Assembly: GCF_963921235.1 (NCBI RefSeq)
Contig: NC_086107.1
Location: 92,754,001-92,818,000, forward strand
Origin: Mobula hypostoma
Lineage: Eukaryota
Reading direction: 5' to 3'
Length of the DNA: 64,000 nt
The notes under the pieces were generated by a model. It was not told the origin of the DNA, made no database searches, and saw only the letters and a program-made list of their open reading frames with translations. Below, one piece after another: positions 14,636 to 37,377 of this stretch. The position numbers and the translations under genes were made by a program. The first letter of the stretch is position 1; every line of letters begins with the position of its first letter.

Positions 14636-15434
14636 TAATTGTCTCTCAGACAAAAGCTGGTGTATTTGTAGGAGGTTATTGTGCACAGACTGGTTCATAC
14701 AGAAGAGAAGGAGACATTTGGCCAATTGAGGAAAGCTGTTTCATCTCACTGGAATCCAATCAAGTCGCTCGTACTCCCTTAGTCTTCTCCCTCAGTTGTG
14801 TGAGTTAGTTATCCAGATAACTATTGAAATCTTCCGTGGAGCATCAAGGCCAGATGAAGTGGTTGAGGCAAGCAGTCAGCTGAATTTAAATTCTGTGTAG
14901 GCTGCTGTAACAGAGCTCTGGATTGTGAATTCGTGGCTTGATCTCATGTGGATGCTTCTGAGATGGGTGTGGGACGCAATCCTTGTCATTCTGCAACCTC
15001 TGAATGTTCAGATAAAAGAATATCCTTTACTAATTCTGCCAGTGTTAGGAGCCAAGTTAGACTTAATGAAGAAACAGGGATGACTGGAAATTCTTAAAAA
15101 TCTATTGAATTTAGAACATGGAACACAGAACAGTACAGCACAGGAACCAGCCCTTCAGTCTACAAAGTCTGTGCTGAACATGATGCCAAATTAAACCATT
15201 AGCAATACCTCACACTTGCCTGAGTTGAACTCAATCTGCCATTTCTCTGCTCATACCTGCACCTGACTTTTTCCTGCTGTAATAGAGAAAGGAACTAGTA
15301 GAAATCAGTGGGTCGAAAAGCACCTGTGGAGGGAAATGGACAGTCGATGTTTCTGGACCGGAACCTATATCATCTGCAATCTCTTGTGAATCTGCATCAT
15401 CAGAATCAGAATCAGGTTTATTGTCACTGACATA

Positions 15435-15981
15435 CCATACTATGCAAAAGTCTTAGGCACACACATATATCCCTAGAGTGCCTAAGACTTCTGCGCAGCA
15501 CTGTAGTAATTTTATGCATTGCACTGTATTGCTACTGCAAAAAAAATCAGATTTGATGACATATGTGAGTGATGATAAACCTGATTTGGAAACGGGTCTC
15601 TTTTGTAGACTGAGAGTGGGAAGGGGGCAGGAAGAGTGGAACCATGGCTGGGAAAAGGGAAGGGAGAGGGAAGGGAGCAGGAAGCACCAGAGAGATATTC
15701 TGTAAAAATCAATAAAACAATTGTTTGGAATCAAATAACCTTGCCTGGTGTCTCAGGGCTGGGTCTGTCTGCCACCCGCATCATCCCCCACCCCTAGCAC
15801 TCCTTCTCTGCCACCTGACCCACACCCCTCCCACAGCGCTCCACCCTCACCACTCCCAACATCCTTTGCTCCCGCCAGATTTACAAACTTGTCAATGCTC
15901 CTCGTGGACAAATACAGTACTGTGCAAAAGTCTTAGGCACCCTAGGTGTATATATGTGCCCAAGACTTTTGCACAGTACTG
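15435..15981 (+). mobile_element. Composite non-autonomous Tc1/mariner-type element, copy A: mini-MITE (15435-15503) + cargo + mini-MITE (15915-15981)
   Basis: TIR CAGTACTGTGCAAAAGTCTTAGGCAC on each mini-MITE, TA flanks; the host tail CTGACA-TA-TGTTGTGAAAT rejoins across the whole unit. Confidence 0.85.
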
Positions 15982-15983
15982 TA

Positions 15984-17245
15984 TGTTGTGAAATGTATTG
16001 TTCTGCGGCAGCAGTACAACATAAATAAACAAATGAATAAGTGAATAAATAAACAGATAGATAGGCAGATAAATAAACAAGTAGTGCAAAGGAGGAATAT
16101 TGAGGTAATAGTGAAAGACCATTCAGCAATCTGATGCAGAAGGGAAGAAACTGGCTGGGGCGGAGCGAAGTGAGGATGGCGCTAAACGGCGACTCCTCTG
16201 CTTGCATCTTCGGAAACTGTTCTATTTCCATCTTTAATGTCTCTATTTTTCCTTTTCAGGGTTCTTTTGAAGACCCTGACCTGGAGTTACATGCTGACTA
16301 CACTTCTTTGCAGGAATGGGACCGGCTCTCGGGTTTTCATAACAGGCCACTGTTCGGCACACCAAGGGCTCGGCCTAAGAGTTCGGCTCGTCTTTGGAGG
16401 CCTAGGATCTCGGAGCTCTGGAGACGGGCAGATCGAAGGTCGGTATCCCGGACTGGTGTGTCATGGGAGCTGGAAGGTCTTTGACTGTGTGCCCAGAGAC
16501 TTGAGATCTTTGGGCACAGAGCTTGAAAAAAGCGAGGCAGGAGACTTTTAAAATCATAAACCAGCGAGTTGTTTGTTATGTCTCCCCTCTTGCTGTGAAA
16601 ATGGAGAGACTTCTTTCTCCCTTATTAGGAAAGGAGAGCCTGTGATATGTTGAAAACCGGGTGAACAAGTAGTCTTTGGAGTACTGCAAGTCTGTGTCTT
16701 TGCTATCGCTTTGCTCGTGCAGATGCCAATGCTTTTTTGCCAGTGGCAAGAGGGGGGTTGTTGCTTGCTACCGCTTAAACTTGGAGGGATGGGGGGAGAA
16801 TTTGGGGTTCTAACATTTAGCTGTCCTTTATCCTTTGGGGCACTCCTCTTTTTTCATGGATGGTTGTGAAGAAAAAGTATCTCAGGATGTATTTTGTGTA
16901 CATTTCTCTGACATTAAAATGTACCTTTGAGACTGTTCCTAAAGTATTGAGTGTGTGTCTTCAGACTCCTGACTACTAGCTCCTCCCTGATGGTAGTTAT
17001 GAGAAGAGGGTACGAACTGGTTGGTGAGGGCCCTTAATGCCTCCCTGAGGCATCGCCTTTTAAATATGTCCTCAATGGTAGGGAGGGTTGTGCCTGTGAG
17101 GGAGCTGGCTGAGTCGACATCCTTCTGCAGCCACTCGCGATCCTTCGCATTGGTCCCTCTGTACCAGAGAGTGATGAAACCAGTCAGAATGCTCTCCCTA
17201 GTACACCTATCAAAACCTGCTGACGTCTTTGGTGACATACTAAAT
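15984..17245 (-). mobile_element. Rex1/Babar LINE 3' portion (tail at ~15400-15432), host of two insertions
   Basis: ORF 16939-17238 (ESILTGFITLWY...LPTIEDIFKRRCL) matches the Rex1/Babar ORF C-terminus; (GATTCT)n tail. Confidence 0.8.
16154..16928 (+). mobile_element. ~775-bp non-coding non-autonomous retroposon
   Basis: GC-rich head (GAGGATGGCGCT), 3' end ATTAAAATGTACCTTT; imperfect TSD GAAACTG/GAGACTG; host GAAACTG-TTCCTAAAG rejoins; related 3' half at ~4000-4470. Confidence 0.7.
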
Positions 17246-18789: not shown

Positions 18790-19225
18790 TTCCATCATCT
18801 GCGAGGTTCTGACCGTGTTGGGAGGTACGATTCAATGCTTGGGTGAGGGCAGCTCCAACAACACTCAAGGAGTCCGACACTATCCGACCACTCAGCTGGC
18901 GCTCAATGCACCACCGTACGTAATCCCCTTCACCGCTGGCACGCGCAAAGTGAGCACTACAAAATGCAACCACCTCCCCCCCCAACTACGATTACTCCAA
19001 CAGCACCTCCTGAACCCAGACAAAGGCACCACCTGTGGATTTCCTCCCAGGTCATACACCTTCCTGACTTGGAAACATATCATGTACGTTGGATCTAAAT
19101 GCACATCTCCCCAACATCTCTGCGGGAGCACCTTCAACAGGGCAGCACTTCAAACCTGAAGCTCGCCACCACCATGTCAAGGACCAATAAGGGATGGGCA
19201 ATAAATGCTGGTCTTGTCAGTAACA
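18790..19225 (+). mobile_element. Old CR1-group LINE 3' end (different family)
   Basis: AWVRAAPTTLKESDTI remnant and GGGATGGGCAATAAATGCTGG 3' UTR. Confidence 0.6.
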
Positions 19226-19460
19226 TCCAGATACAGATCCAGATTGAGATCCAAATTCAGACTCAGATTCAGATCCAGATCAAGTTCCAGATTCAGATCC
19301 CAATTCAGATCCCGATTCAGATCCAGATCCAGTTCCAGATTCTGATCCAGATCCGGATTCAGATTCAGAACCTGATCCACATCCAGATTCAGATCCCGAT
19401 CCAGATCCAGATCCAAAATCCAGATCCAGATACAGGACCAGATTAAGATTCAGATTCATT
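19224..19460. repeat. (CAGATY)n hexamer tandem repeat
   Basis: Long run of CAGATC/CAGATT units; gives the spurious QIQIQI and DLDLDL ORFs. Confidence 0.95.
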
Positions 19461-22101: not shown

Positions 22102-22320
22102 CTTGCTAGTTAATAGCTTATTGACGTTTAGTTATTTTAGCTGCAAAGGAGAGATCTCACCTTCCCTCCCTTGGCCTTCCCTCTCCTCGTGGGAATGCAC
22201 CTCGTGCTCGATGTCATTCTGTTTCTAGTTTACCCCATACAACCATACTGTCAAGCTATTCCACTGCAGTAGGCAGTGCGCTGGGGTCTAGAACGGTTCT
22301 CGTTCCGCTGCCTGCACAGG

Positions 22321-23062
22321 CGGGGGTATTAATGAGAGGTGTCTGACAAGGGTATTAATGAGAAGGTCTGGCAGGGGTATCATTGAGAGGTGTTTGGCAA
22401 TGGTATTAAAGAGAAGGGTCTGGCAGGTGTATTAATGACAGGAGTCAGGTGAGGGTATTAATGAGAGGGTTCAGGAGGGGTATTAATGAGAGGGTCTGGC
22501 AGGCGAACTAGCAAGAGGGTTCTGGCAATGGTATTAATGAGAGGGATTTTAATGAGAACTAGCAGGGGTATTATTGAGAGGGGTCAGGAGGGGGTATTAA
22601 TGAGAGTGGGTCTGGCAGGGTATTAATGGGAGGGGTCTGGCAGGGGTATTAATGAGAGGCATCAGGAGGGGCTATTAATGAGAGAGGGTCTGGCAGGGTA
22701 TTAATGGGAGGGGTCTGGCAGGGGAATTAACAAGGAGGGTCTGGCAGTGGTATTAACGAGAGGGATTTTAATGAGAACTAGCAGGGGTATTAATGAGAGG
22801 GATCAGGAGGGGCTATTAATGAGAGAGGGTCTGGCAGGGTATTAATGGGAGGGGTCTGGCAGCAAGGAGGGTCTGGCAGTGGTATTAACGAGAGGGATTT
22901 TAATGAGAACTAGCAGGGATATTAATGAGAGGGTGTTGGCATGGGTATTAATGAGAGTGGTCTGGCAGGGCAATTGGCAAGAAGGGTCCAGCAGTGGTAT
23001 TTAATGAGAACTAGCAGGGATATTAATGAAAGAATGTTGGCAGGGGTATTAATGAGGGAGTC
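22321..23062. repeat. G-rich minisatellite, ~26-bp unit GGGGTATTAATGAGAGGGGTCTGGCA
   Basis: Roughly 28-30 degenerate units with a higher-order duplication (22663.. repeated at 22804..). Confidence 0.95.
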
Positions 23063-24580
23063 TGAGTGAGAGGAGAACTGCCCAATCCTGTTTTTCCCTC
23101 AATAGACGTTGCTTTGTCCCCATCATCAGGCTGGAATCGACCAACTAACCCAGTTTGGGATTGGATTATAGAAGATGGACCAGTACAGTACAGGAACAGG
23201 GTCTTCGGCCTACAATATCTGTACTGAGTTAAACTAAATCCCTTCTCCCTGCACGTGATCTATATCTCCCTATTCCCTCCACATTCATGTGTCTAACAGT
23301 CTCTTAAACATATCTGCTTCAGAATTAATCTGGTTACCTTTTTTTTCTGCTGAGACGACTGTTTAGATATTTTCGTTTAAGCATTATTTTCTTTTGAAAA
23401 AAATTGAATCAAAAGGAACTTAAATTAATACCCAAAGTACAGACAAAATGCTGGTGTCATGGTCCCAACTTAACAGCGGCAGGCATCCAACTTTCAGTGA
23501 TCCAATTCCCCAGCGTATGGTTAGCTGCCACTGTCCAGTTAAGTTTCAGACAGCCAATTATTGCCTGCCACATCCCTTCATGGGAAGTCTGTACTTATAG
23601 GCCTTATGCTGAGCACTCAGTACTCAATCATAGGAGTTCCATTTCTAGTGCTACTGTTTGTGATTTTGTCTTTGGATTTCATTTGTGTTGTCTTGTTTAG
23701 TCTAATTCTAGACCCTAATCTGCACCACAAACAAGACGTGCTGGAAGTCCAAGCAACACACACAAAATGCTGGAGGAACTCTGCATGCCTGGCAGCATCT
23801 ATGGAAAAAAATACGGTTGATGTTTCGGGCCAAATCCTGCACTGGGGCTCACCGCCATCCATAGCTCTCTCGTTACAGCTGGAGGTACTCAGCAGGTCAG
23901 GCAGTGTCAATGGAGGGGGATAGGCAGTTGTGTTGGTGCTGAGATCCATCAGCAGGACCTCAGAAAATTCCCCAGTCCATGTGCTGCCCATCGCTTGTGA
24001 AATGTCTCGCGGCTGCGGGAGGGCACCTCAGCCAGAGAGACAAGGGTTCAGTGCTGGCATCCAGTTCTGCCCATTGTGGATTGCCTCATTCTCCCTGCCC
24101 GGGATTCCTCCAGATGCTCCAGTTTCCACCTGAACCCCAAAAACATGCCTTGAAAGGATTAGAGTTAAAGATTGGCTTTATTTATCACATGTACGTCGAA
24201 ACATGCAGTGACATGCGTCATTTGCATCAAGAACCAACACAGTCCGAGGATGTGCTGGGGGCAGCCTGCAAGTGTCACCACACTTACCGCGCCAACGCCA
24301 ACGTAACATGCCCACAACTTAATAACCCTTATCCATACAGGAGGGACCAAAAGCCTTAGGCATGTATACATGCAGCTAGGCTGCCTAAGACTTTTACACA
24401 GTACTGTATTTGTCAATGTGGAAAGGAGAGCAAGTTTGTAAATCTGGCGGGAGCAAAGGATACTGGTGGAGTGTAATAGGTATGGGAGAGGTGGCAGAGA
24501 AGAAGTGCCAGGTGTAGGGGGTGGCACAGGTACAGACACACCTGGCCCTGAGACACCAGGCAAGCTTATTTGATTCCAAA

Positions 24581-24986
24581 AACATTGACTTCTCAAACTT
24601 CCACTAATGCCCCACCTCCCCCTCGTACCCCATCCGTTATTTATTTATATACACACATTCTTCTCTCTCTCTCCTTTTTCTCCCTCTGTCCCTCTCACTA
24701 TACCCCTTGCCCATCCTCTGGGCTTCCCCCCTCCCCCTTTCTTTCTCCCTAGGCCTCCTGTCCCATGATCTTCTTGTATCCCTTTTGCCAATCACCTGTC
24801 CAGCTCTTGGCTCCATCTCTCCCCCTCCTGTCTTCTCCTATCATTTTGGATCTCCCCCTCCCCCTCCAACTTTCAAATCTCTTACTAGCCCTTCTTTCAG
24901 TTAGTCCTGACGAAGGGTCTCGGCCCGAAACGTCGACTGTACCTCTTCCTAGAGATGCTTTCACCAACAACTTTTGTGTGTGTTGC
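24581..24986 (+). mobile_element. Young Penelope-like 3' terminal-repeat insertion
   Basis: 11-bp TSD TTGATTCCAAA (24570-24580 and 24987-24997); begins in the last GIY-YIG codons (NIDFSNF) and contains a hammerhead. Confidence 0.9.
24902..24939 (+). ncRNA. Minimal type I hammerhead ribozyme (Penelope-associated)
   Basis: Stem I UAGUC/GACUG, CUGACGA core, extra A, stem II GGGU-CUCG-GCCC, GAAA, palindromic ACGU in place of stem III, GUC cleavage triplet (cut after 24934). Confidence 0.8.
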
Positions 24987-25222
24987 TTGATTCCAAACAA
25001 TTGGTTTACTGATCATTACAGAATGTCTCTCTGGTGCTTCCCTCTCCCTCCCCTCTCCCTTCCCCCTTTTCCCAACCATGGTTTCCCCTCTCCCTGGCCC
25101 TTTCCCACTCTGTCTGCAATAGAGACCCATATCAGAATTAGTTTGATCATCACTCACTTATGTCATGAAATTTGTTTTTTTTTGTGGCAATATATAAAAT
25201 TACTACAGTGCTGTACAAAAGT

Positions 25223-25535
25223 TTTTTTTTAATAGGCATCCATTAGTCTTGTGAGACCATGGATTTGCGCCTTGCAAGGTTTCCAGGGCGCAGGCCTGGG
25301 CAAGGTTGTATGGAAGACCAGCAGTTGCCCATGCTGCAAGTCTCCCCTCTCCACGCCACCGATGTTGTCCAAGGGAAGGGCACGAGGACCCATACAGCTT
25401 GGCACCGGTGTCGTCGCAGAGCAATGTGTGGTTAGGTGCCTTGTTCAAGGACACACACGCTGCCTCAGCCAAGGCTCGAACCAGCAACCTTCAAATCACT
25501 AGACGAACACTTTAACCACTTGGCTATGCGCCGAC
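25223..25535 (-). mobile_element. tRNA-derived SINE with CORE/Meta-like central motif and poly(A) tail
   Basis: A-box TAGCCAAGTGG, B-box GGTTCGAGCC, GTCCTTGAACAAGGCACCTAAC; TSD ACAAAAGT (25215-25222 and 25536-25543). Confidence 0.88.
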
Positions 25536-26599
25536 ACAAAAGTACTGCGTGTATATATATATATGGGTGCCTAAGACATTTCCTCAGTACTGTACGTCTT
25601 TGGATGTGGAGGAAGGCCGAGCACCAGCAGTAAACCCATGCAGTCTCGGGGAGAATGTACAAACTCCTTACAGACAGCAGTTGAATTGAACCCCAATCTT
25701 ACAGGTAGTGCTGTAAAGCATTACTCTAACCACTATGCTAACATGCCATCCCTTGGCAGATTTAATTGCACACTGTAAGTTACCCTTCATGCGTAAATCT
25801 GGGCACAGGGAATAGGAATGTGGGGAGAATGAAATAAGTAAGGATAGGAGAGGTGTACAAATGGCTGCTTGCCAGTTTGCATAGTCTCAGTGGACCCAGG
25901 GGTCTATTTCTTGGCTATATCTCCATGCCATGTGTTCCCTTTCTCCCGATACCAGGACTGAGTGATTGGGATGGGCAGAAACCAGGCCACCCTCATCCCT
26001 GATAGCCCACTTCCTGGACCTGTGAGTGAGCACCTTATCAATGGGGGCTGCCTGTGGGGCAGACTTTGTCCAGCGCACCCACTCTCCCGGGGTTTAGGAT
26101 CTTTGGGCTGGGAACAAGCAATCAAAGTATGAGGAAAAGAATCCTCAAGAAATCACAATGGTTCACGAACAGCTTCTTCCGCTCCGCCATCAGATTTCTG
26201 AATGCTTAGAAAACTGATGGCAGAGAGGAAGAAGCTGTATCAGAAACACTGAGTGTGGATCTTCAGGCTCCTGTACCTCCTCCCCAATGATAGCAATGAG
26301 AAGAGGGCATGCTTTGGACTGTGCGCGATTACTGGCCTTCCACTTACCGTCACACTTCTGACACTGACACACCAAATGGAGATTGAAAACAAGAGGCCAT
26401 AATATTCCACTGAGCAGCTCACAGCGGCCTCCAGCAGATCGATCGGTTATTTAGTAATTCAATCCGACTTTGATTGTCTCTGTTTGAGCCAGCACTACAT
26501 CTGCATCTGTCAGCGGGCTGACATTCCACTATTAACCCCCGGAGTGCCGGAACGCCATTCCTGTCTCTTCAATACAAGCAAGGGGGATGAGGAGTGAGG

Positions 26600-32690: not shown

Positions 32691-34327
32691 CTTCAATCAC
32701 TTTAAAAGTGATTCAATCACTTGAAACACTTCAATCACTTTAATACCTTCGTATTAATCACTGGCTATTTACTCAATTTATGCCTCTTATCGTCGTTATA
32801 CGCTCTCATACTCTTCTGATCCCAAGGGAAAAACCCTAGCTCGCTGAGCCTATCCTCATAAGAAACATTCTCAAGTTCCTGAGCTATTAAAAAATTAATA
32901 CAGGCTACCATTTAATTAAACATAGCATACGTAGTGTAGCGCACAATTAACACATGAGGAGTGTTTGCTATCTTTGGGCCTGTACTTGATGGAGTTTAGA
33001 AGACTGAGGGTGGGGGGGGAATATCATTTAATCCTACCAGATACCAAAAATCCTGGATAGAGTGGATGTGGAGAGGATGTTTCCATTAGTAGGAATGAAC
33101 AGGACTAGATCGAACAGCTTCAGAATAAAGGGACATCCCTTTAAAACCGAGCTGAGGAGAAATTTCTTCAGCTAGAGGTGGTGAGTCTGTGGAATTTGTT
33201 GCCGCAGAGAACTGTGGAGACAAGCCATTGGATGTATTTAGGGTAGAGATTGGTAGGTTCTTGGTTGGCATGTGGGTTAAGGGTTACAGGGATGAGGCAG
33301 GAGAATGGGTGAAACAAGAAGTCAGCTTGGATTGAATGGCAGAGCAGTCTCAATGGACTGAATGGCCTAATTCAGCTCCTGTATCTTAAAGAACACTCAC
33401 ACATTGGGAGCCCTAAAACCCAGGTTTGAATTCCAGGTTTAGCACCTGGGGTAGTGTTCTGTCAGGTGCGCCATTTCTTGAAGAACTACCCCAGTGTCAA
33501 GAGCATATATTTACAATTCTGTGCAAAGGTCTTCGGCACTTGCAAAAAGATTTCTGGAAAGTGAAGATACTTTCAAAAAGAATGAAATGAAAAGTTTCTA
33601 AGTATCAAAAAAATACTATAAAGAGAGCAGTAAACAGTAAAAAAAACTAAATCAGATTAATATTTGATGTGACCAACCTTTGCCCTTAAAACTGCATCAA
33701 TTCTCTTAGGTACATCGTTGTGCAGTTTTATAAGAAAATCAGCTGGTAGGTTGCTCCAGGCATCTTGGAGAACTTGCCACAATTCTTCTGCAGACCTCAG
33801 CTGTCTCGTTTGCTTCTGCCTCTGCAGGTACTGTAATTCTGGATAGCCTCGGTGTTCTTGGAGGCGAGGGTGGAGTGCCATGAGAGGGGTGGCAAAAAAA
33901 GGAGTGCCAGGATGGGGGTAGGGGGGTGGTGAGGATGCAGACACCCCCAGCCCTGAGTCATGAGGCAAAGCTCTTTGATTCCAGACAACTGGCTTATTGA
34001 TCATTACAGAATGTCTCTCTGGTGCTTCCCTCTTCCTCCCCTCTACCTTCGCCTTTTCATAACCATGATTCCCCTCTCCATCTCCCCTTCCCACTCTCAC
34101 CCATATCAGAATCAGGTTTATCGTCACTCACATATGTCACGAAATTTCTTCTGTTTCGCGGCAGCATTATAGTGCAACACATAAAATTCCCATTGCTGCC
34201 TGTAAGTAGTTTGTACATTCTCCCTGTGACTGCATGGGTTTCCTCCGGGTGTTCCAGTTTCCTCCCACAGTCCAAAGACATGCCGATTGGTGGGTTAGTT
34301 TGCCATTGTAAATTGTCCCATGATTAG

Positions 34328-34895
34328 TCAATAGACAACAGGTGCAGGCGTAGGCCATTCAGCCCTTCGAGCCAGCATCACCATTCACTATGATCATGGC
34401 AGATCATCCACAATCAGCACCCTTTTCCTGCCTTCTTCCCATATCCCTTGACTCCGCTATCTTTAAGAGCTCTATCTAATTCTTTCTTGAAAGAATCCAG
34501 AGAATTGGCCTCCACTGCCTTCTGAGGCAGAGCATTCCACAGAACCACAACCCTCTGTGTGAAAAAGTTTTTCCTCAACTCCGTTCTAAATTGTCTACCC
34601 CTTATTTGTAAACTGTGGCCCCTGGTTCTGGACTCCCCCAACATCGGGAACATGTTTCCTGCCTCTAGCGTGTCCAATCCCTTAACAATCTTATATGTTT
34701 CAATCAGATCCCCTCTCATCCTTCTAAATTCCAGTGTATACAACCCCAGTCGCTCCAATCTTTCAACATATGACAGTCCCGCCATCCCGGGAATTAACCT
34801 TGTGAACCTACGCTGTACTCCCTCAATAGCTAGAATGTCCTTCCTCAAATTTGGAGACTCAAAACTGTACACAATACTCCAGGTGTGGTCTCACC
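34328..34895 (-). mobile_element. Young 5'-truncated CR1 nested in a V-domain SINE
   Basis: ORF 34414-34872 (EGVQRRFTRLIPG...FFTQRVV); TSD ATTAG (34323-34327 and 34896-34900). Confidence 0.95.
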
Positions 34896-35028
34896 ATTAG
34901 GCTAGGACTAAATTGAGGGGTGCTGGATGAGGCAGCTCAAAGGGTCAGAAAGGCATATTCTGCACTCTATCTCAGTAATTAAATCAAAATAAACCTTACT
35001 ACAATACTGTGGAAAAGTCTTAGGTGCC

Positions 35029-35087
35029 ATATATATATATACATATATATGTGTATATATATACATATATATATACACACACACATG

Positions 35088-35150
<63 letters not shown>
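35029..35150. repeat. Compound (TA)n/(TACA)n microsatellite
   Basis: Direct observation; lies between the TIRs of a mini-MITE. Confidence 0.95.
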
Positions 35151-35389
35151 CTATCTACACCTAAGACGTTTGTATAGTACTGTATGTATAATACATAACC
35201 TATTAACAATAAATTGTTGAGAATAAATAATATTAACAATAAATGCTCTCTATTGTAAGCTAGATGTGGGAGTTTGCTGGAGACAAATTGGCTGCTGGGT
35301 TTCCTTCATTATAACAGAACCATTTGCTTTAAAACACACTGAAATTCTATGAAGATTGCAAGAATTTCTTCCTTGTTTTGGAGAACAGA

Positions 35390-35590: not shown

Positions 35591-36341
35591 TACCCCTCCG
35601 TATAATGCATTGGTCAGACCACAGCTGGACTAGTCACACACCATAAACTACTTCCCTTCAACCATTCAGTTCCTGAACCAGCCAGCACAACCCTAATCAT
35701 TCAAACTGCACTAAAATTGACTTCTTCACTTTGCACTAAAATTGACTTTTTCTTTGATCTAATTGAGTTTTCTTGTAAGAAAGACAAGCGCCTTTGCTCC
35801 TCCCTCTGCAAAAGGCAGGATTTCCTGGTGGCCTTCCCATTCCCATTTTAACATGTCTGTCCAAGGCGTCCTCTACTCCTAAGATGTGAGGCCACTCTCA
35901 GGTTGGAGGAGCAGCACCTCAAGGTTTGAGGTCTTACAAAGGGGCATGGATTGAATGAATGCAGTCTTTGCCCTAGGGTTGAGGAGAGAATGCCCGGGGT
36001 AGGTGGGGTCTTTGACTGTGCTGGCTGTTTTACTGAGGCAGCGAGGGGTATAGACAGAGTCCACAGAGAGGAGGCTGGTTCCTGTGATGTGCTGAACTAT
36101 GTCCACAACTCTCTGCAGGTTCTTGCAATCATGTACAAAACAGCTTGAGCACACACTCCCCCTTTCTGCTATAAAATTTATTTGACAGTTTGCCTTCTTT
36201 TGCACATTGGTTGTTTTTCAGTGTTTGTGTATAGTTTTTTATTGATCCAGTTGTATTTCTTTGATTCACTGGGAATGCTTGCAAGAAAATGAATCTCAAG
36301 GTAGTACAGTCTGACATATACATATTTTGATAATAAATTTA

Positions 36342-36985
36342 TAGTCCTGTGCAAAAGTCTTAGTTTCCCTCGATGTTTCATATTGTTTCAGATAGTATGG
36401 TTTCCACAGAGCCCTGATCGCACCATTATCAAGGTTGTCTGGGATTATCTGGAGAGACAGAAGCAAGCGAGACAGCTGAAGTCTTCAGAAAACCATGGCA
36501 AGTTTTCCAAGATGTTTGGAACAACCTACCAGATGATTTTCTTAAAAAACTGAATGACAGTGTACCTAAGAGAATTGGCGCAGTTTTAAAGGCAAAGCGT
36601 GGTCTCATCAAATATTAATTTGATTTCAAACAACAGGAATTCTGCAGATGCTGGGAATTCAAGCAACACACATCAAAGTTGCTGGTGAACGCAGCAGGCC
36701 AAGCAGCATCTGTAGGAAGAGGTGCAGTCGCTGGTGAACGCTGTCCTGACGAAGGGTCTCGGCTTGAAACGTCGACTGCACCTCTTCCTACAGATGCTGC
36801 TTGGCCTGCTGCGTTCACCAGCAACTTTGATGTGTGTTGCTATTAATTTGATTTAGTTTTTTTCTCTTTACTGCTCTTTATAGTAATTTTTTTGATCTTT
36901 AGAAACGTTTCATTTCATTATTTTTGAAGCTATCTTCACTTTACAGATTTTTTTTACATGTGCCCAAGACCTTTGCACAGTACTG
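36342..36985 (+). mobile_element. Internally deleted Tc1/mariner element with both TIRs
   Basis: Same TIR family as the mini-MITEs; VWDYLERQK...WQVFQDVWNNLP...PKRIGAVLKAK remnant; host tail AATAAATT-TA-CTTTGAAC rejoins. Confidence 0.85.
36627..36840. mobile_element. Palindromic Penelope mini-insertion (68-bp perfect inverted repeat, hammerhead core in the loop)
   Basis: Arms 36663-36730 and 36773-36840 are exact reverse complements; 14-bp TSD TATTAATTTGATTT (36613-36626 and 36841-36854). Confidence 0.92.
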
Positions 36986-37377
36986 CACTTTGAACTTTGA
37001 ACTTTGAACAATATGGTCTAAACTAGTGAATGGGTACCAACTGAGTCACGCATGAACTTTGCAAAGAAACCACAGAAGAATAGAAATAAATGTTACGCAA
37101 AGTTTACAAACGGATGATTATATAAGCTATAAGCAAATGACAAACATAACAGCTAAAACTCAAGGTAAAACACAGGTCAAACGACAATCTGGACCCTAAT
37201 GCATCATCACCCAGTGACTAGCTACTTTAGCGCTCAAGGAAAGTGGTTGATTGTTGCCAGAACCCCTTGTTACATCAGTGAGGGAAGAGGTGTAATGCTG
37301 CATGAATTATAACAGAGAAACATGCTGAACTGTTAAACGCTTGCTAAACACTTGCCAGTCAAATCTCCTGTAAAAAT

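What the first reader, a model, noticed from the sequence alone, without database searches (positions are those of the whole stretch)
15435..15981. Composite transposon: two ~68-bp mini-MITEs bracket and mobilise a ~410-bp cargo
Seen: a complete TIR-TIR mini-MITE (15435-15503) and a second one (15915-15981) enclose a cargo made of a retroposon 3' tail plus non-coding sequence. The same three-part unit recurs reversed at 24338-25592. In both places a different host repeat rejoins across the outer TA when the whole unit is removed. Established: CAGT-starting TIRs with TA duplication are Tc1/mariner hallmarks. Inference: two neighbouring mini-MITEs captured the DNA between them and the unit transposed using its outer TIRs, like an IS-flanked bacterial composite transposon but in a vertebrate. 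I cannot tell whether repeat libraries already hold it as a single unannotated consensus.
Basis: partly seen in the sequence, partly recalled or inferred. Interest (0 to 1): 0.7.

Follow-up and report, generated by a model that had tools for sequence, protein, structure and literature searches.

The report
Miniature composite transposon in a ray
Two tiny jumping-gene remnants bracket about 410 bases of non-coding DNA, and the whole block has jumped as one piece to three places in this stretch of a ray genome; this layout is best known from bacteria, has a few eukaryotic precedents, and here carries no gene.

Summary
Two 67-69-bp Tc1-type TIR-TIR arms, inverted relative to each other, bracket a ~410-bp non-coding cargo at 15435-15981. 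The unit recurs at 24338-25592 and, with a different B arm, at 33514-35182, both stretched by later insertions.

All 3 cargo copies in the window lie between outward-facing TIRs, and 11 of 11 TIR tips carry TA. Host repeats rejoin across one TA at 2 of 2 testable sites. None of 8 flank pairs is similar. So the unit moved as one piece by its outer TIRs, not by segmental duplication.

How it was born is less certain. No free mini-MITE occurs in the window (0 of 5). In copy 3 the B arm is the 3' end of a Tc1 transposase gene plus TIR, so the first partner may have been a longer Tc1. Copies are 75-86% identical: old and dead. Genome-wide copy number, donor locus and repeat-library status could not be tested. 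Eukaryotic composites are known (KolobokP, Ac/Ds macrotransposons). This is a new variant of a known kind, of moderate interest.

The parts
15399..15434 (-). Host repeat, left part; ends in the outer TA (15433-15434). Same repeat family as the tail inside the cargo
15435..15503 (-). Copy 1 arm A: TIR-spacer-TIR mini-MITE, 69 bp, inverted relative to arm B
   Evidence: inverted alignment score 93, direct 75
15504..15590 (+). Inner TA (15504-15505) and a captured piece of a dispersed repeat with a short tandem tail, cut at the TA. Right boundary approximate; retroposon class not tested
15591..15912 (.). Cargo-specific non-coding DNA, purine-rich then C-rich. Found only in the three units
15913..15983 (+). 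Inner TA, copy 1 arm B (15915-15981, 67 bp), outer TA (15982-15983)
15984..16017 (-). Host repeat, start of the right part; continues the left part with one TA
   Evidence: offset 0 in 3 host copies
24336..24408 (-). Copy 2 arm B with TA at both tips; outer TIR decayed (7 mismatches of 28)
24409..25205 (-). Copy 2 cargo, split by a later insertion at about 24581-24997 with an 11-bp direct repeat
25206..25594 (-). Copy 2 arm A and outer TA; inner TIR broken by a later insertion at about 25223-25543 with an 8-bp direct repeat
33512..33830 (-). Copy 3 B side: outer TA, TIR, 3' untranslated part and the last ~57 codons of a Tc1 transposase (33660-33830). No inner TIR
33831..34188 (-). Copy 3 cargo; the junction with the Tc1 remnant lies somewhere in 33830-33856
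34186..34995 (+). Later insertion in copy 3: a 5'-truncated SINE-like repeat, itself split by a LINE-like fragment (about 34328-34900, 5-bp direct repeat). Class names recalled, boundaries approximate
35000..35184 (.). Mini-MITE with a TA-microsatellite-expanded spacer and TA at both tips. Read as the displaced arm A of copy 3, because it is preceded by the same TTAC|TA junction as arm A in copies 1 and 2
   Evidence: (TTAC precedes 32 of 6854 TA sites, both strands)
36340..36987 (+). Free, internally deleted Tc1 of the same TIR family: left TIR, transposase C-terminus with a frameshift, later insertion, right TIR. Host repeat rejoins across it

Best explanation
This is a dead, non-autonomous composite DNA transposon of the Tc1 family. 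Step 1 (inferred): two elements of one Tc1 family landed at two TA sites about 410 bp apart, one inside a dispersed repeat tail and one in ordinary DNA, in opposite orientation. Step 2 (shown by its traces): a transposase supplied in trans paired the two outermost TIRs, cut out the whole block and pasted it into new TA sites. Step 3 (inferred): repeated rounds made a family with at least two structural forms, mini-arm/cargo/mini-arm (copies 1 and 2) and mini-arm/cargo/Tc1-3'-end (copy 3). Both outer ends appear to be the parent's right (3') end and the inner ends its left end; this rests on 4-5 bases next to each TIR and is only likely. Whether arm B was a mini-MITE or a longer Tc1 at birth is open; I put it near 60:40 for mini.
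For: Within the window, 3 of 3 cargo copies lie between outward-facing TIRs, and an nhmmer profile finds no other cargo piece (next hit E 0.58). TA stands at 11 of 11 TIR tips of the three units; TA is 3427 of 64000 positions. Hosts rejoin with one TA at copy 1 (offset 0, three host copies) and copy 2 (+1, -2), and the two hosts are different repeats. Flank scores in 8 pairs are 12-23, against 221 inside the unit. Inner junctions are exact TIR tip + TA, and the captured tail stops at that TA. Copies 1 and 2 share a G at position 5 of arm A's inner TIR that the other TIRs lack. All three cargo tails share a CTCAC state absent from 4 of 4 free tails, so they descend from one founder. The TIR is tied to a Tc1 transposase C-terminus (144 hits, best E 4e-13); 5 of 5 full-length relatives scanned carry DDE_3 and HTH_Tnp_Tc3_2.
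Against: Only three copies, all from one window that was picked because it shows the pattern. No free mini-MITE was seen (0 of 5), so independent mobility of the arms is unshown. Copy 3 lacks inner TIR B. Its arm A is assigned across an 800-bp insertion on a 4-base junction match and a 5-base direct repeat, lacks the shared G, and has ambiguous polarity. Copy 3's outer flanks match no host repeat, so its empty site is untested. Pairwise cargo identity does not cleanly group copies 1 and 2 (86/80/85% and 82/80/75%). One flank pair (B side, copies 2 and 3) was reached by only 7 of 200 shuffles, though its score (23) is below the shuffled maximum (29). No donor locus was found.
Confidence: 0.78

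Rival explanations
1. Pack-TIR route: one internally deleted Tc1 took up the cargo by template switching during gap repair (copy 3 type). The inner TIRs came later, when mini-MITEs inserted just inside the ends or replaced them.
For: Copy 3 joins cargo directly to transposase coding sequence, and the 25 bases at the junction resemble both partners. Microhomology junctions are the signature described for Pack-TIRs and MITE birth (PMC8277862 passages; PMC3814204 abstract). Copy 3 keeps the ancestral state of the tail where copies 1 and 2 share a T run.
Against: In copies 1 and 2 both cargo junctions are TIR tip + TA, with no Tc1 internal sequence between arm and cargo. The same junction in copy 3 is equally explained by a deletion in a composite whose B partner was a long Tc1.
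Confidence: 0.12
2. The cargo is a repeat in its own right (for example a retroposon), and mini-MITEs inserted independently into its copies at the same two TA sites.
For: The cargo begins with a dispersed repeat tail, and the same tail family was hit by the unit at copy 1. Arm A of copy 3 may be flipped and lacks the shared G.
Against: No cargo copy without TIRs is found (0 of 3). Cargo similarity stops at the arms, and the DNA beyond the outer TA is unrelated host repeat that rejoins across the whole unit.
Confidence: 0.05
3. Segmental or tandem duplication of a region that happened to contain two mini-MITEs.
For: The three units lie within 20 kb of each other.
Against: There is no flank similarity in 8 pairs. 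The hosts differ and each rejoins across one TA. The copies are 75-86% identical, with opposite orientations.
Confidence: 0.02
4. Circle capture: the two inner TIR tips attacked one TA on a circular piece of DNA, so the cargo is a circle opened at a single TA.
For: The cargo is bounded by TA on both sides and both inner tips face it.
Against: It predicts that the sequence before the B junction continues into the A junction. None of the 4 free tail copies continues that way, although they also differ from each other there.
Confidence: 0.03

Closest known systems
Bacterial composite transposons (definition in PMC9977792 and PMC9587614; passages read)
   Same: Two elements of one family, here inverted, bracket a central segment and move with it, leaving the target duplication outside.
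   Different: No gene in the cargo and no intact transposase in either arm. The arms are 67-69 bp. Independent movement of the arms is not shown.
KolobokP composite-like DNA transposons (Kojima-type Repbase study, PMC9587614; passages read; supplements not seen)
   Same: A eukaryotic, animal family whose two terminal units each carry their own short TIRs; non-autonomous families exist.
   Different: KolobokP has direct repeats of about 450 or 660 bp, a Kolobok transposase and a His-Me nuclease, with solo units and multimers. Here: Tc1, TA duplication, inverted arms of about 68 bp, non-coding cargo, a vertebrate.
Maize Ac/Ds macrotransposon and compound Ds-l4-483 (PMC3260210; passages read)
   Same: Two ends from separate elements mobilise or trap the DNA between them.
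   Different: hAT superfamily, 7 to 100 kb, single events rather than an amplified small family.
Pack-TIRs of animals (PMC8277862; passages read; supplements not seen)
   Same: TIR elements carrying captured host DNA. Multicopy cases with distinct target duplications exist in frog and alligator, 4 cases (1.4%).
   Different: There the cargo sits inside one element and is thought to enter by gap filling or fork switching. Here copies 1 and 2 have four TIRs with TA at each. The word 'composite' does not occur in that paper's main text.
MADE1/MiHsmar1 (PMC1784062, PMC5224488; passages read) and MER6 (PMC6887750; passages read)
   Same: MADE1 is an 80-bp TIR-spacer-TIR element like one arm. MER6 is a Tc1/mariner MITE with TA duplication that spread a SINE piece.
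   Different: MADE1 moves alone. MER6 has one TIR pair and got its cargo by a SINE inserting into it.
Foldback-flanked 'TE' elements of Drosophila melanogaster, the Paris pair of D. virilis and the Sleeping Beauty sandwich vector (all recalled; searches did not retrieve a passage)
   Same: As recalled: animal DNA transposon pairs, the last two Tc1-like, that move intervening DNA by their outer ends.
   Different: As recalled: large, rare or engineered events, not a small amplified family.

Membership tests
Non-autonomous Tc1/mariner element | Terminal inverted repeats at both ends | tested here: met
   26-bp TIRs at both outer ends of 3 of 3 units
Non-autonomous Tc1/mariner element | TA target duplication | tested here: met
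   TA at 6 of 6 outer tips; host rejoins with one TA at 2 of 2 testable units
Non-autonomous Tc1/mariner element | TIR shared with a Tc1-type transposase element | tested here: met
   The same TIR follows a transposase C-terminus at 33512-33830 and 36340-36987; relatives carry DDE_3 + HTH_Tnp_Tc3_2. The remnants themselves gave no significant Pfam or PDB hit
Non-autonomous Tc1/mariner element | DD34E spacing of the parent transposase | not testable with these tools
   The remnants keep only the C-terminal end
MITE | High copy number with uniform size | not testable with these tools
   No genome held; no read depth obtained; 3 copies in 64 kb
Composite transposon | Two complete elements of one family flank a central segment | tested here: met
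   Met in copy 1; met in copy 2 with one inner TIR broken by a later insertion; not met in copy 3, which lacks inner TIR B
Composite transposon | Moves as one unit, with the target duplication outside and unrelated flanks | tested here: met
Composite transposon | The flanking elements also occur and move on their own | tested here: inconclusive
   0 of 5 mini-MITEs are free in the window; one free longer element of the family exists at 36340-36987
Composite transposon | At least one flanking element encodes the transposase | tested here: not met
   None in copies 1 and 2; a ~57-codon remnant in copy 3. It therefore works like a composite but is non-autonomous, as MITE-bounded composites are
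Pack-TIR | Cargo inside a single TIR element, with a parental copy elsewhere that is free of the element | tested here: inconclusive
   Copies 1 and 2 have two TIR pairs, not one; copy 3 could fit; the parental copy could not be sought
KolobokP | Long terminal direct repeats of about 450 or 660 bp, Kolobok transposase and His-Me nuclease | tested here: not met
   Arms are inverted, 67-69 bp and of Tc1 type
IR/DR Tc1 subgroup (Sleeping Beauty, Tdr1) | Inner and outer binding sites as direct repeats within an inverted repeat of about 230 bp | tested here: not met
   Within each arm the two TIRs are inverted and 15-17 bp apart (PMC5224488 passages)

The most novel reading that the evidence does not exclude
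The family began as a true IS-style composite: a transposase-coding Tc1 at one end (copy 3 keeps its last ~57 codons) and a mini-MITE at the other. It then shrank into a four-TIR 'sandwich' MITE that moves by two right ends and spread to very high copy number in rays, more successfully than the free ~68-bp arm, because the cargo gives a workable length and the inner TIRs give extra transposase sites. That would be a natural, amplified vertebrate composite whose birth, shrinkage and success over its own parts can be read from one genome.
Probability: 0.25. Interest if true: 0.62.

Novelty: new variant of a known kind. Interest (0 to 1): 0.4.

Why it matters
It shows that pairs of tiny Tc1 derivatives can pick up and spread the DNA between them in a vertebrate. 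That is a route of sequence capture distinct from the gap-filling and fork-switching models proposed for animal Pack-TIRs, in a survey where only 4 cases (1.4%) were multicopy. Because the family appears repeated, it allows a direct count of which TIR pair a transposase prefers (outer-outer or one arm alone) in a natural four-TIR substrate. Limits: the cargo is non-coding, the copies are old and inactive, and composite-like elements are already described in eukaryotes, so this adds an example and a test bed rather than a principle.

Tried and rejected
No whole genome is held, and no read-depth or loose-end table was obtained, so copy number and end usage outside the window are open.

Sequencing-run search: 20 of 23 listed rows, from 8 studies and 9 organism labels, hold 0.11-0.55 of the words of a 661-bp stretch.

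Pattern scans for the TIR found 0 in metagenome, genome and viral contigs. A cargo pattern found 0 in metagenome contigs, and blastn against phages found none; these collections are not expected to hold ray DNA.

Translated frames across both arm-cargo junctions found no protein relatives. The first word-based search with the transposase remnant also failed, and Pfam and PDB gave nothing significant for it; the exhaustive search did find relatives. Rfam: 0 hits. tRNA: 0.

The idea that the cargo is itself a foldback was rejected: 29 and 22 of 40 shuffles fold as well. The strong fold of the whole unit (z -5.2) comes from arm A pairing with arm B. The idea that the cargo is Tc1 internal sequence was also rejected: of 149 proteins, none hits the cargo of copy 1 or 2, and four alignments run 11-32 bases into copy 3's cargo as extensions. 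My first reading of 35000-35184 as a free mini-MITE was dropped.

Earlier-findings look-ups by sequence and by relatives returned nothing, nor did one by words.

Full report
Setting. No genome is held for this window, so the tests are confined to its 64 kb plus protein and literature searches. The nearest named relative of a transposase remnant in the window is a piece inside a Mobula hypostoma gene model, 67% identical. Earlier scan notes call the same genome a devil ray (unchecked). I take the host to be a ray.

Observation. Copy 1 reads TA, arm A (15435-15503), TA, cargo (15506-15912), TA, arm B (15915-15981), TA. Each arm is two 26-bp TIRs with a 15-17-bp spacer. The TIR has 7 matches at up to 3 mismatches against none in 100 shuffles. 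With TA included and up to 9 mismatches allowed there are 13 sites, against 0.7 by chance. These 13 sites belong to four elements: copy 1 (4), copy 2 (4), copy 3 (3) and a free longer element (2). Arms A and B align better inverted than direct (score 93 against 75), so they also form one inverted repeat of about 68 bp, which dominates the predicted fold.

Copy 2 (24338-25592, minus strand) has the same order of parts. It is longer because of two later insertions, each with its own direct repeat (11 bp at 24570 and 24987; 8 bp at 25215 and 25536). The second one breaks the inner TIR of arm A.

Its cargo (about 33831-34188, minus strand) is 75-85% identical to the other two. On the A side it is cut by a 5'-truncated SINE-like repeat that holds a LINE-like fragment (class names recalled). 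Right behind that repeat's tail comes TTAC, TA and a mini-MITE (35002-35182), the same junction as arm A has in copies 1 and 2. TTAC precedes 32 of 6854 TA sites counted on both strands. I read this as arm A pushed 800 bp away. The support is a 4-base match and a 5-base direct repeat; against it, this arm lacks a variant shared by the other two and its polarity is ambiguous. On the B side the cargo runs straight into the last ~57 codons of a transposase, then its 3' end, a TIR and TA (33512-33830). There is no inner TIR on that side.

Family. The remnant has 144 relatives at E up to 0.001. Of 12 hits scanned, the 5 full-length ones (336-350 aa) carry DDE_3 and HTH_Tnp_Tc3_2, one has HTH domains only, one has an unrelated host domain and five have none. 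This is a Tc1-type transposase; catalytic spacing cannot be read from the remnant. A free, internally deleted element at 36340-36987 has the same TIR and the same C-terminus, with a frameshift, and its host rejoins across it (offsets 0 and +1). By comparison with it, the ends of the arms that face the cargo look like the parent's left end (CTAG next to the TIR in 3 of 3 scorable inner ends) and the outer ends like its right end. Copy 3's outer B end is a true right end, since it follows the stop codon. This polarity rests on few bases and is only likely.

Did the unit move as a whole? Four tests say yes. (1) TA stands at 11 of 11 tips of the three units; the template used to find the tips contained TA but did not require it. 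(2) Left and right flanks, aligned separately, meet in free copies of the host repeat. For copy 1 the offset is 0 in three host copies, +2 in a fourth, and +5 or +6 in three rows slipped in the tandem tail. For copy 2 it is +1 and -2, with one row at -13. Copy 3's flanks match no shared host, so it is untested. The hosts of copies 1 and 2 are different repeats. (3) In 8 flank pairs local scores are 12-23, none above the shuffled maximum, against 221 for an internal control; the best pair was reached by 7 of 200 shuffles. (4) A profile of the cargo-specific DNA finds only these three copies, the next hit being at E 0.58, so 3 of 3 are bracketed. Segmental duplication and a free-standing cargo repeat are both disfavoured.

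How was it born? Both inner junctions in copies 1 and 2 are an exact TIR tip plus TA, and the captured repeat tail stops at that TA. This is what two separate transposition events leave, not a template switch (inference). All three cargo tails share a state absent from 4 of 4 free tails, so there was one founder. Copies 1 and 2 share a T run in the tail and a G in arm A's inner TIR that copy 3 lacks, which hints at two subfamilies; overall identity does not confirm it. All 5 mini-MITEs in the window are bound to cargo, so free arms are not shown. And copy 3's B side is a longer Tc1 piece in the same orientation as arm B. That fits an ancestor with a long Tc1 at B, from which copy 3 arose by a deletion; about 25 bases at its junction resemble both cargo and Tc1. 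It also fits a later template switch from a four-TIR unit onto a long Tc1, or a Pack-TIR origin. The near-equal size and spacer of arms A and B (56 of 67 aligned bases identical) favour both having been minis. Three copies cannot settle this.

Why would the composite spread? This is inference only. A 547-bp substrate with extra TIRs may be a better substrate than a 68-bp one. The literature cuts both ways: Sleeping Beauty handles a substrate made almost only of its ends at about 10% efficiency, while Hsmar1 prefers its 80-bp MADE1 (PMC5224488, passages). This family has simple short TIRs, closer to the second case.

Comparison with what is known. Composite transposons are defined and mostly found in bacteria (PMC9977792, passages). 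Eukaryotic precedents read here are KolobokP, whose terminal direct repeats carry their own TIRs (PMC9587614, passages); an Ac/Ds macrotransposon and a compound Ds in maize (PMC3260210, passages); multicopy Pack-TIRs in frog and alligator (PMC8277862, passages); and MER6, a Tc1/mariner MITE carrying a SINE piece (PMC6887750, passages). MADE1 is the model for one arm (PMC1784062, passages), and microhomology-guided shrinkage of Tc1/mariner elements is described (PMC3814204, abstract). Passages of PMC3072357, PMC3169594 and PMC7043111 added nothing. Foldback-flanked elements and the Paris pair in Drosophila, and the Sleeping Beauty sandwich vector, are recalled, not retrieved. Ten searches listed no paper on an amplified four-TIR Tc1 composite in a vertebrate, or on this family. 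The library lacks most subscription journals, three of the searches returned mostly off-topic papers, I saw no supplements, and Dfam and Repbase could not be searched. Absence from print is therefore not established; the repeat may already exist as an unclassified consensus, and the supplements of PMC8277862 could list similar cases.

Verdict. The feature is real, and the unit transposed whole. It works like a composite transposon. It meets the structural and mobility criteria, fails the criterion of an encoded transposase, and leaves independent arm mobility open. It is a new variant of a known kind: small, non-autonomous, Tc1, inverted arms, vertebrate, non-coding cargo, long dead. Interest 0.4.

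Noticed in passing
window 36340-36987: Free internally deleted Tc1 of the same family. It holds a ~230-bp insertion with a 14-bp direct repeat (36613, 36841) whose core (36662-36841) is an 86% self-inverted pair of repeat tails, a hairpin.
   Followed up: partly
window 15399-15434 and 15506-15590: Copy 1 landed in a member of the same repeat family whose tail it carries, in the opposite orientation. Probably chance, given at least four other copies of that tail in the window; not tested.
   Followed up: partly
window 15433-36987: All 13 TIR sites (four elements) lie within 21.6 kb of the 64-kb window and none in the rest; local hopping or chance.
   Followed up: no
window 35028-35150: The spacer of a mini-MITE has grown from about 16 bp to about 130 bp by TA/CA microsatellite expansion.
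   Followed up: no
window 19201-19439: Array of 12-bp units, 13 registers at 64-83% identity; it resembles an expanded repeat tail or a low-complexity coding stretch.
   Followed up: no
window 22306-23056: Minisatellite of about 26-bp units with higher-order spacing.
   Followed up: no
protein P0003 (XP_062898578.1): A Mobula hypostoma C10orf67 gene model contains about 70 residues of this Tc1 family's C-terminus: an exonised element or a gene-model artefact.
   Followed up: no
proteins P0004, P0012: P0012 runs from the same transposase end through the translated right TIR. P0004 starts with a near-identical translated TIR. So close relatives of the family exist in other deposited sequences; hosts not determined.
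   Followed up: partly
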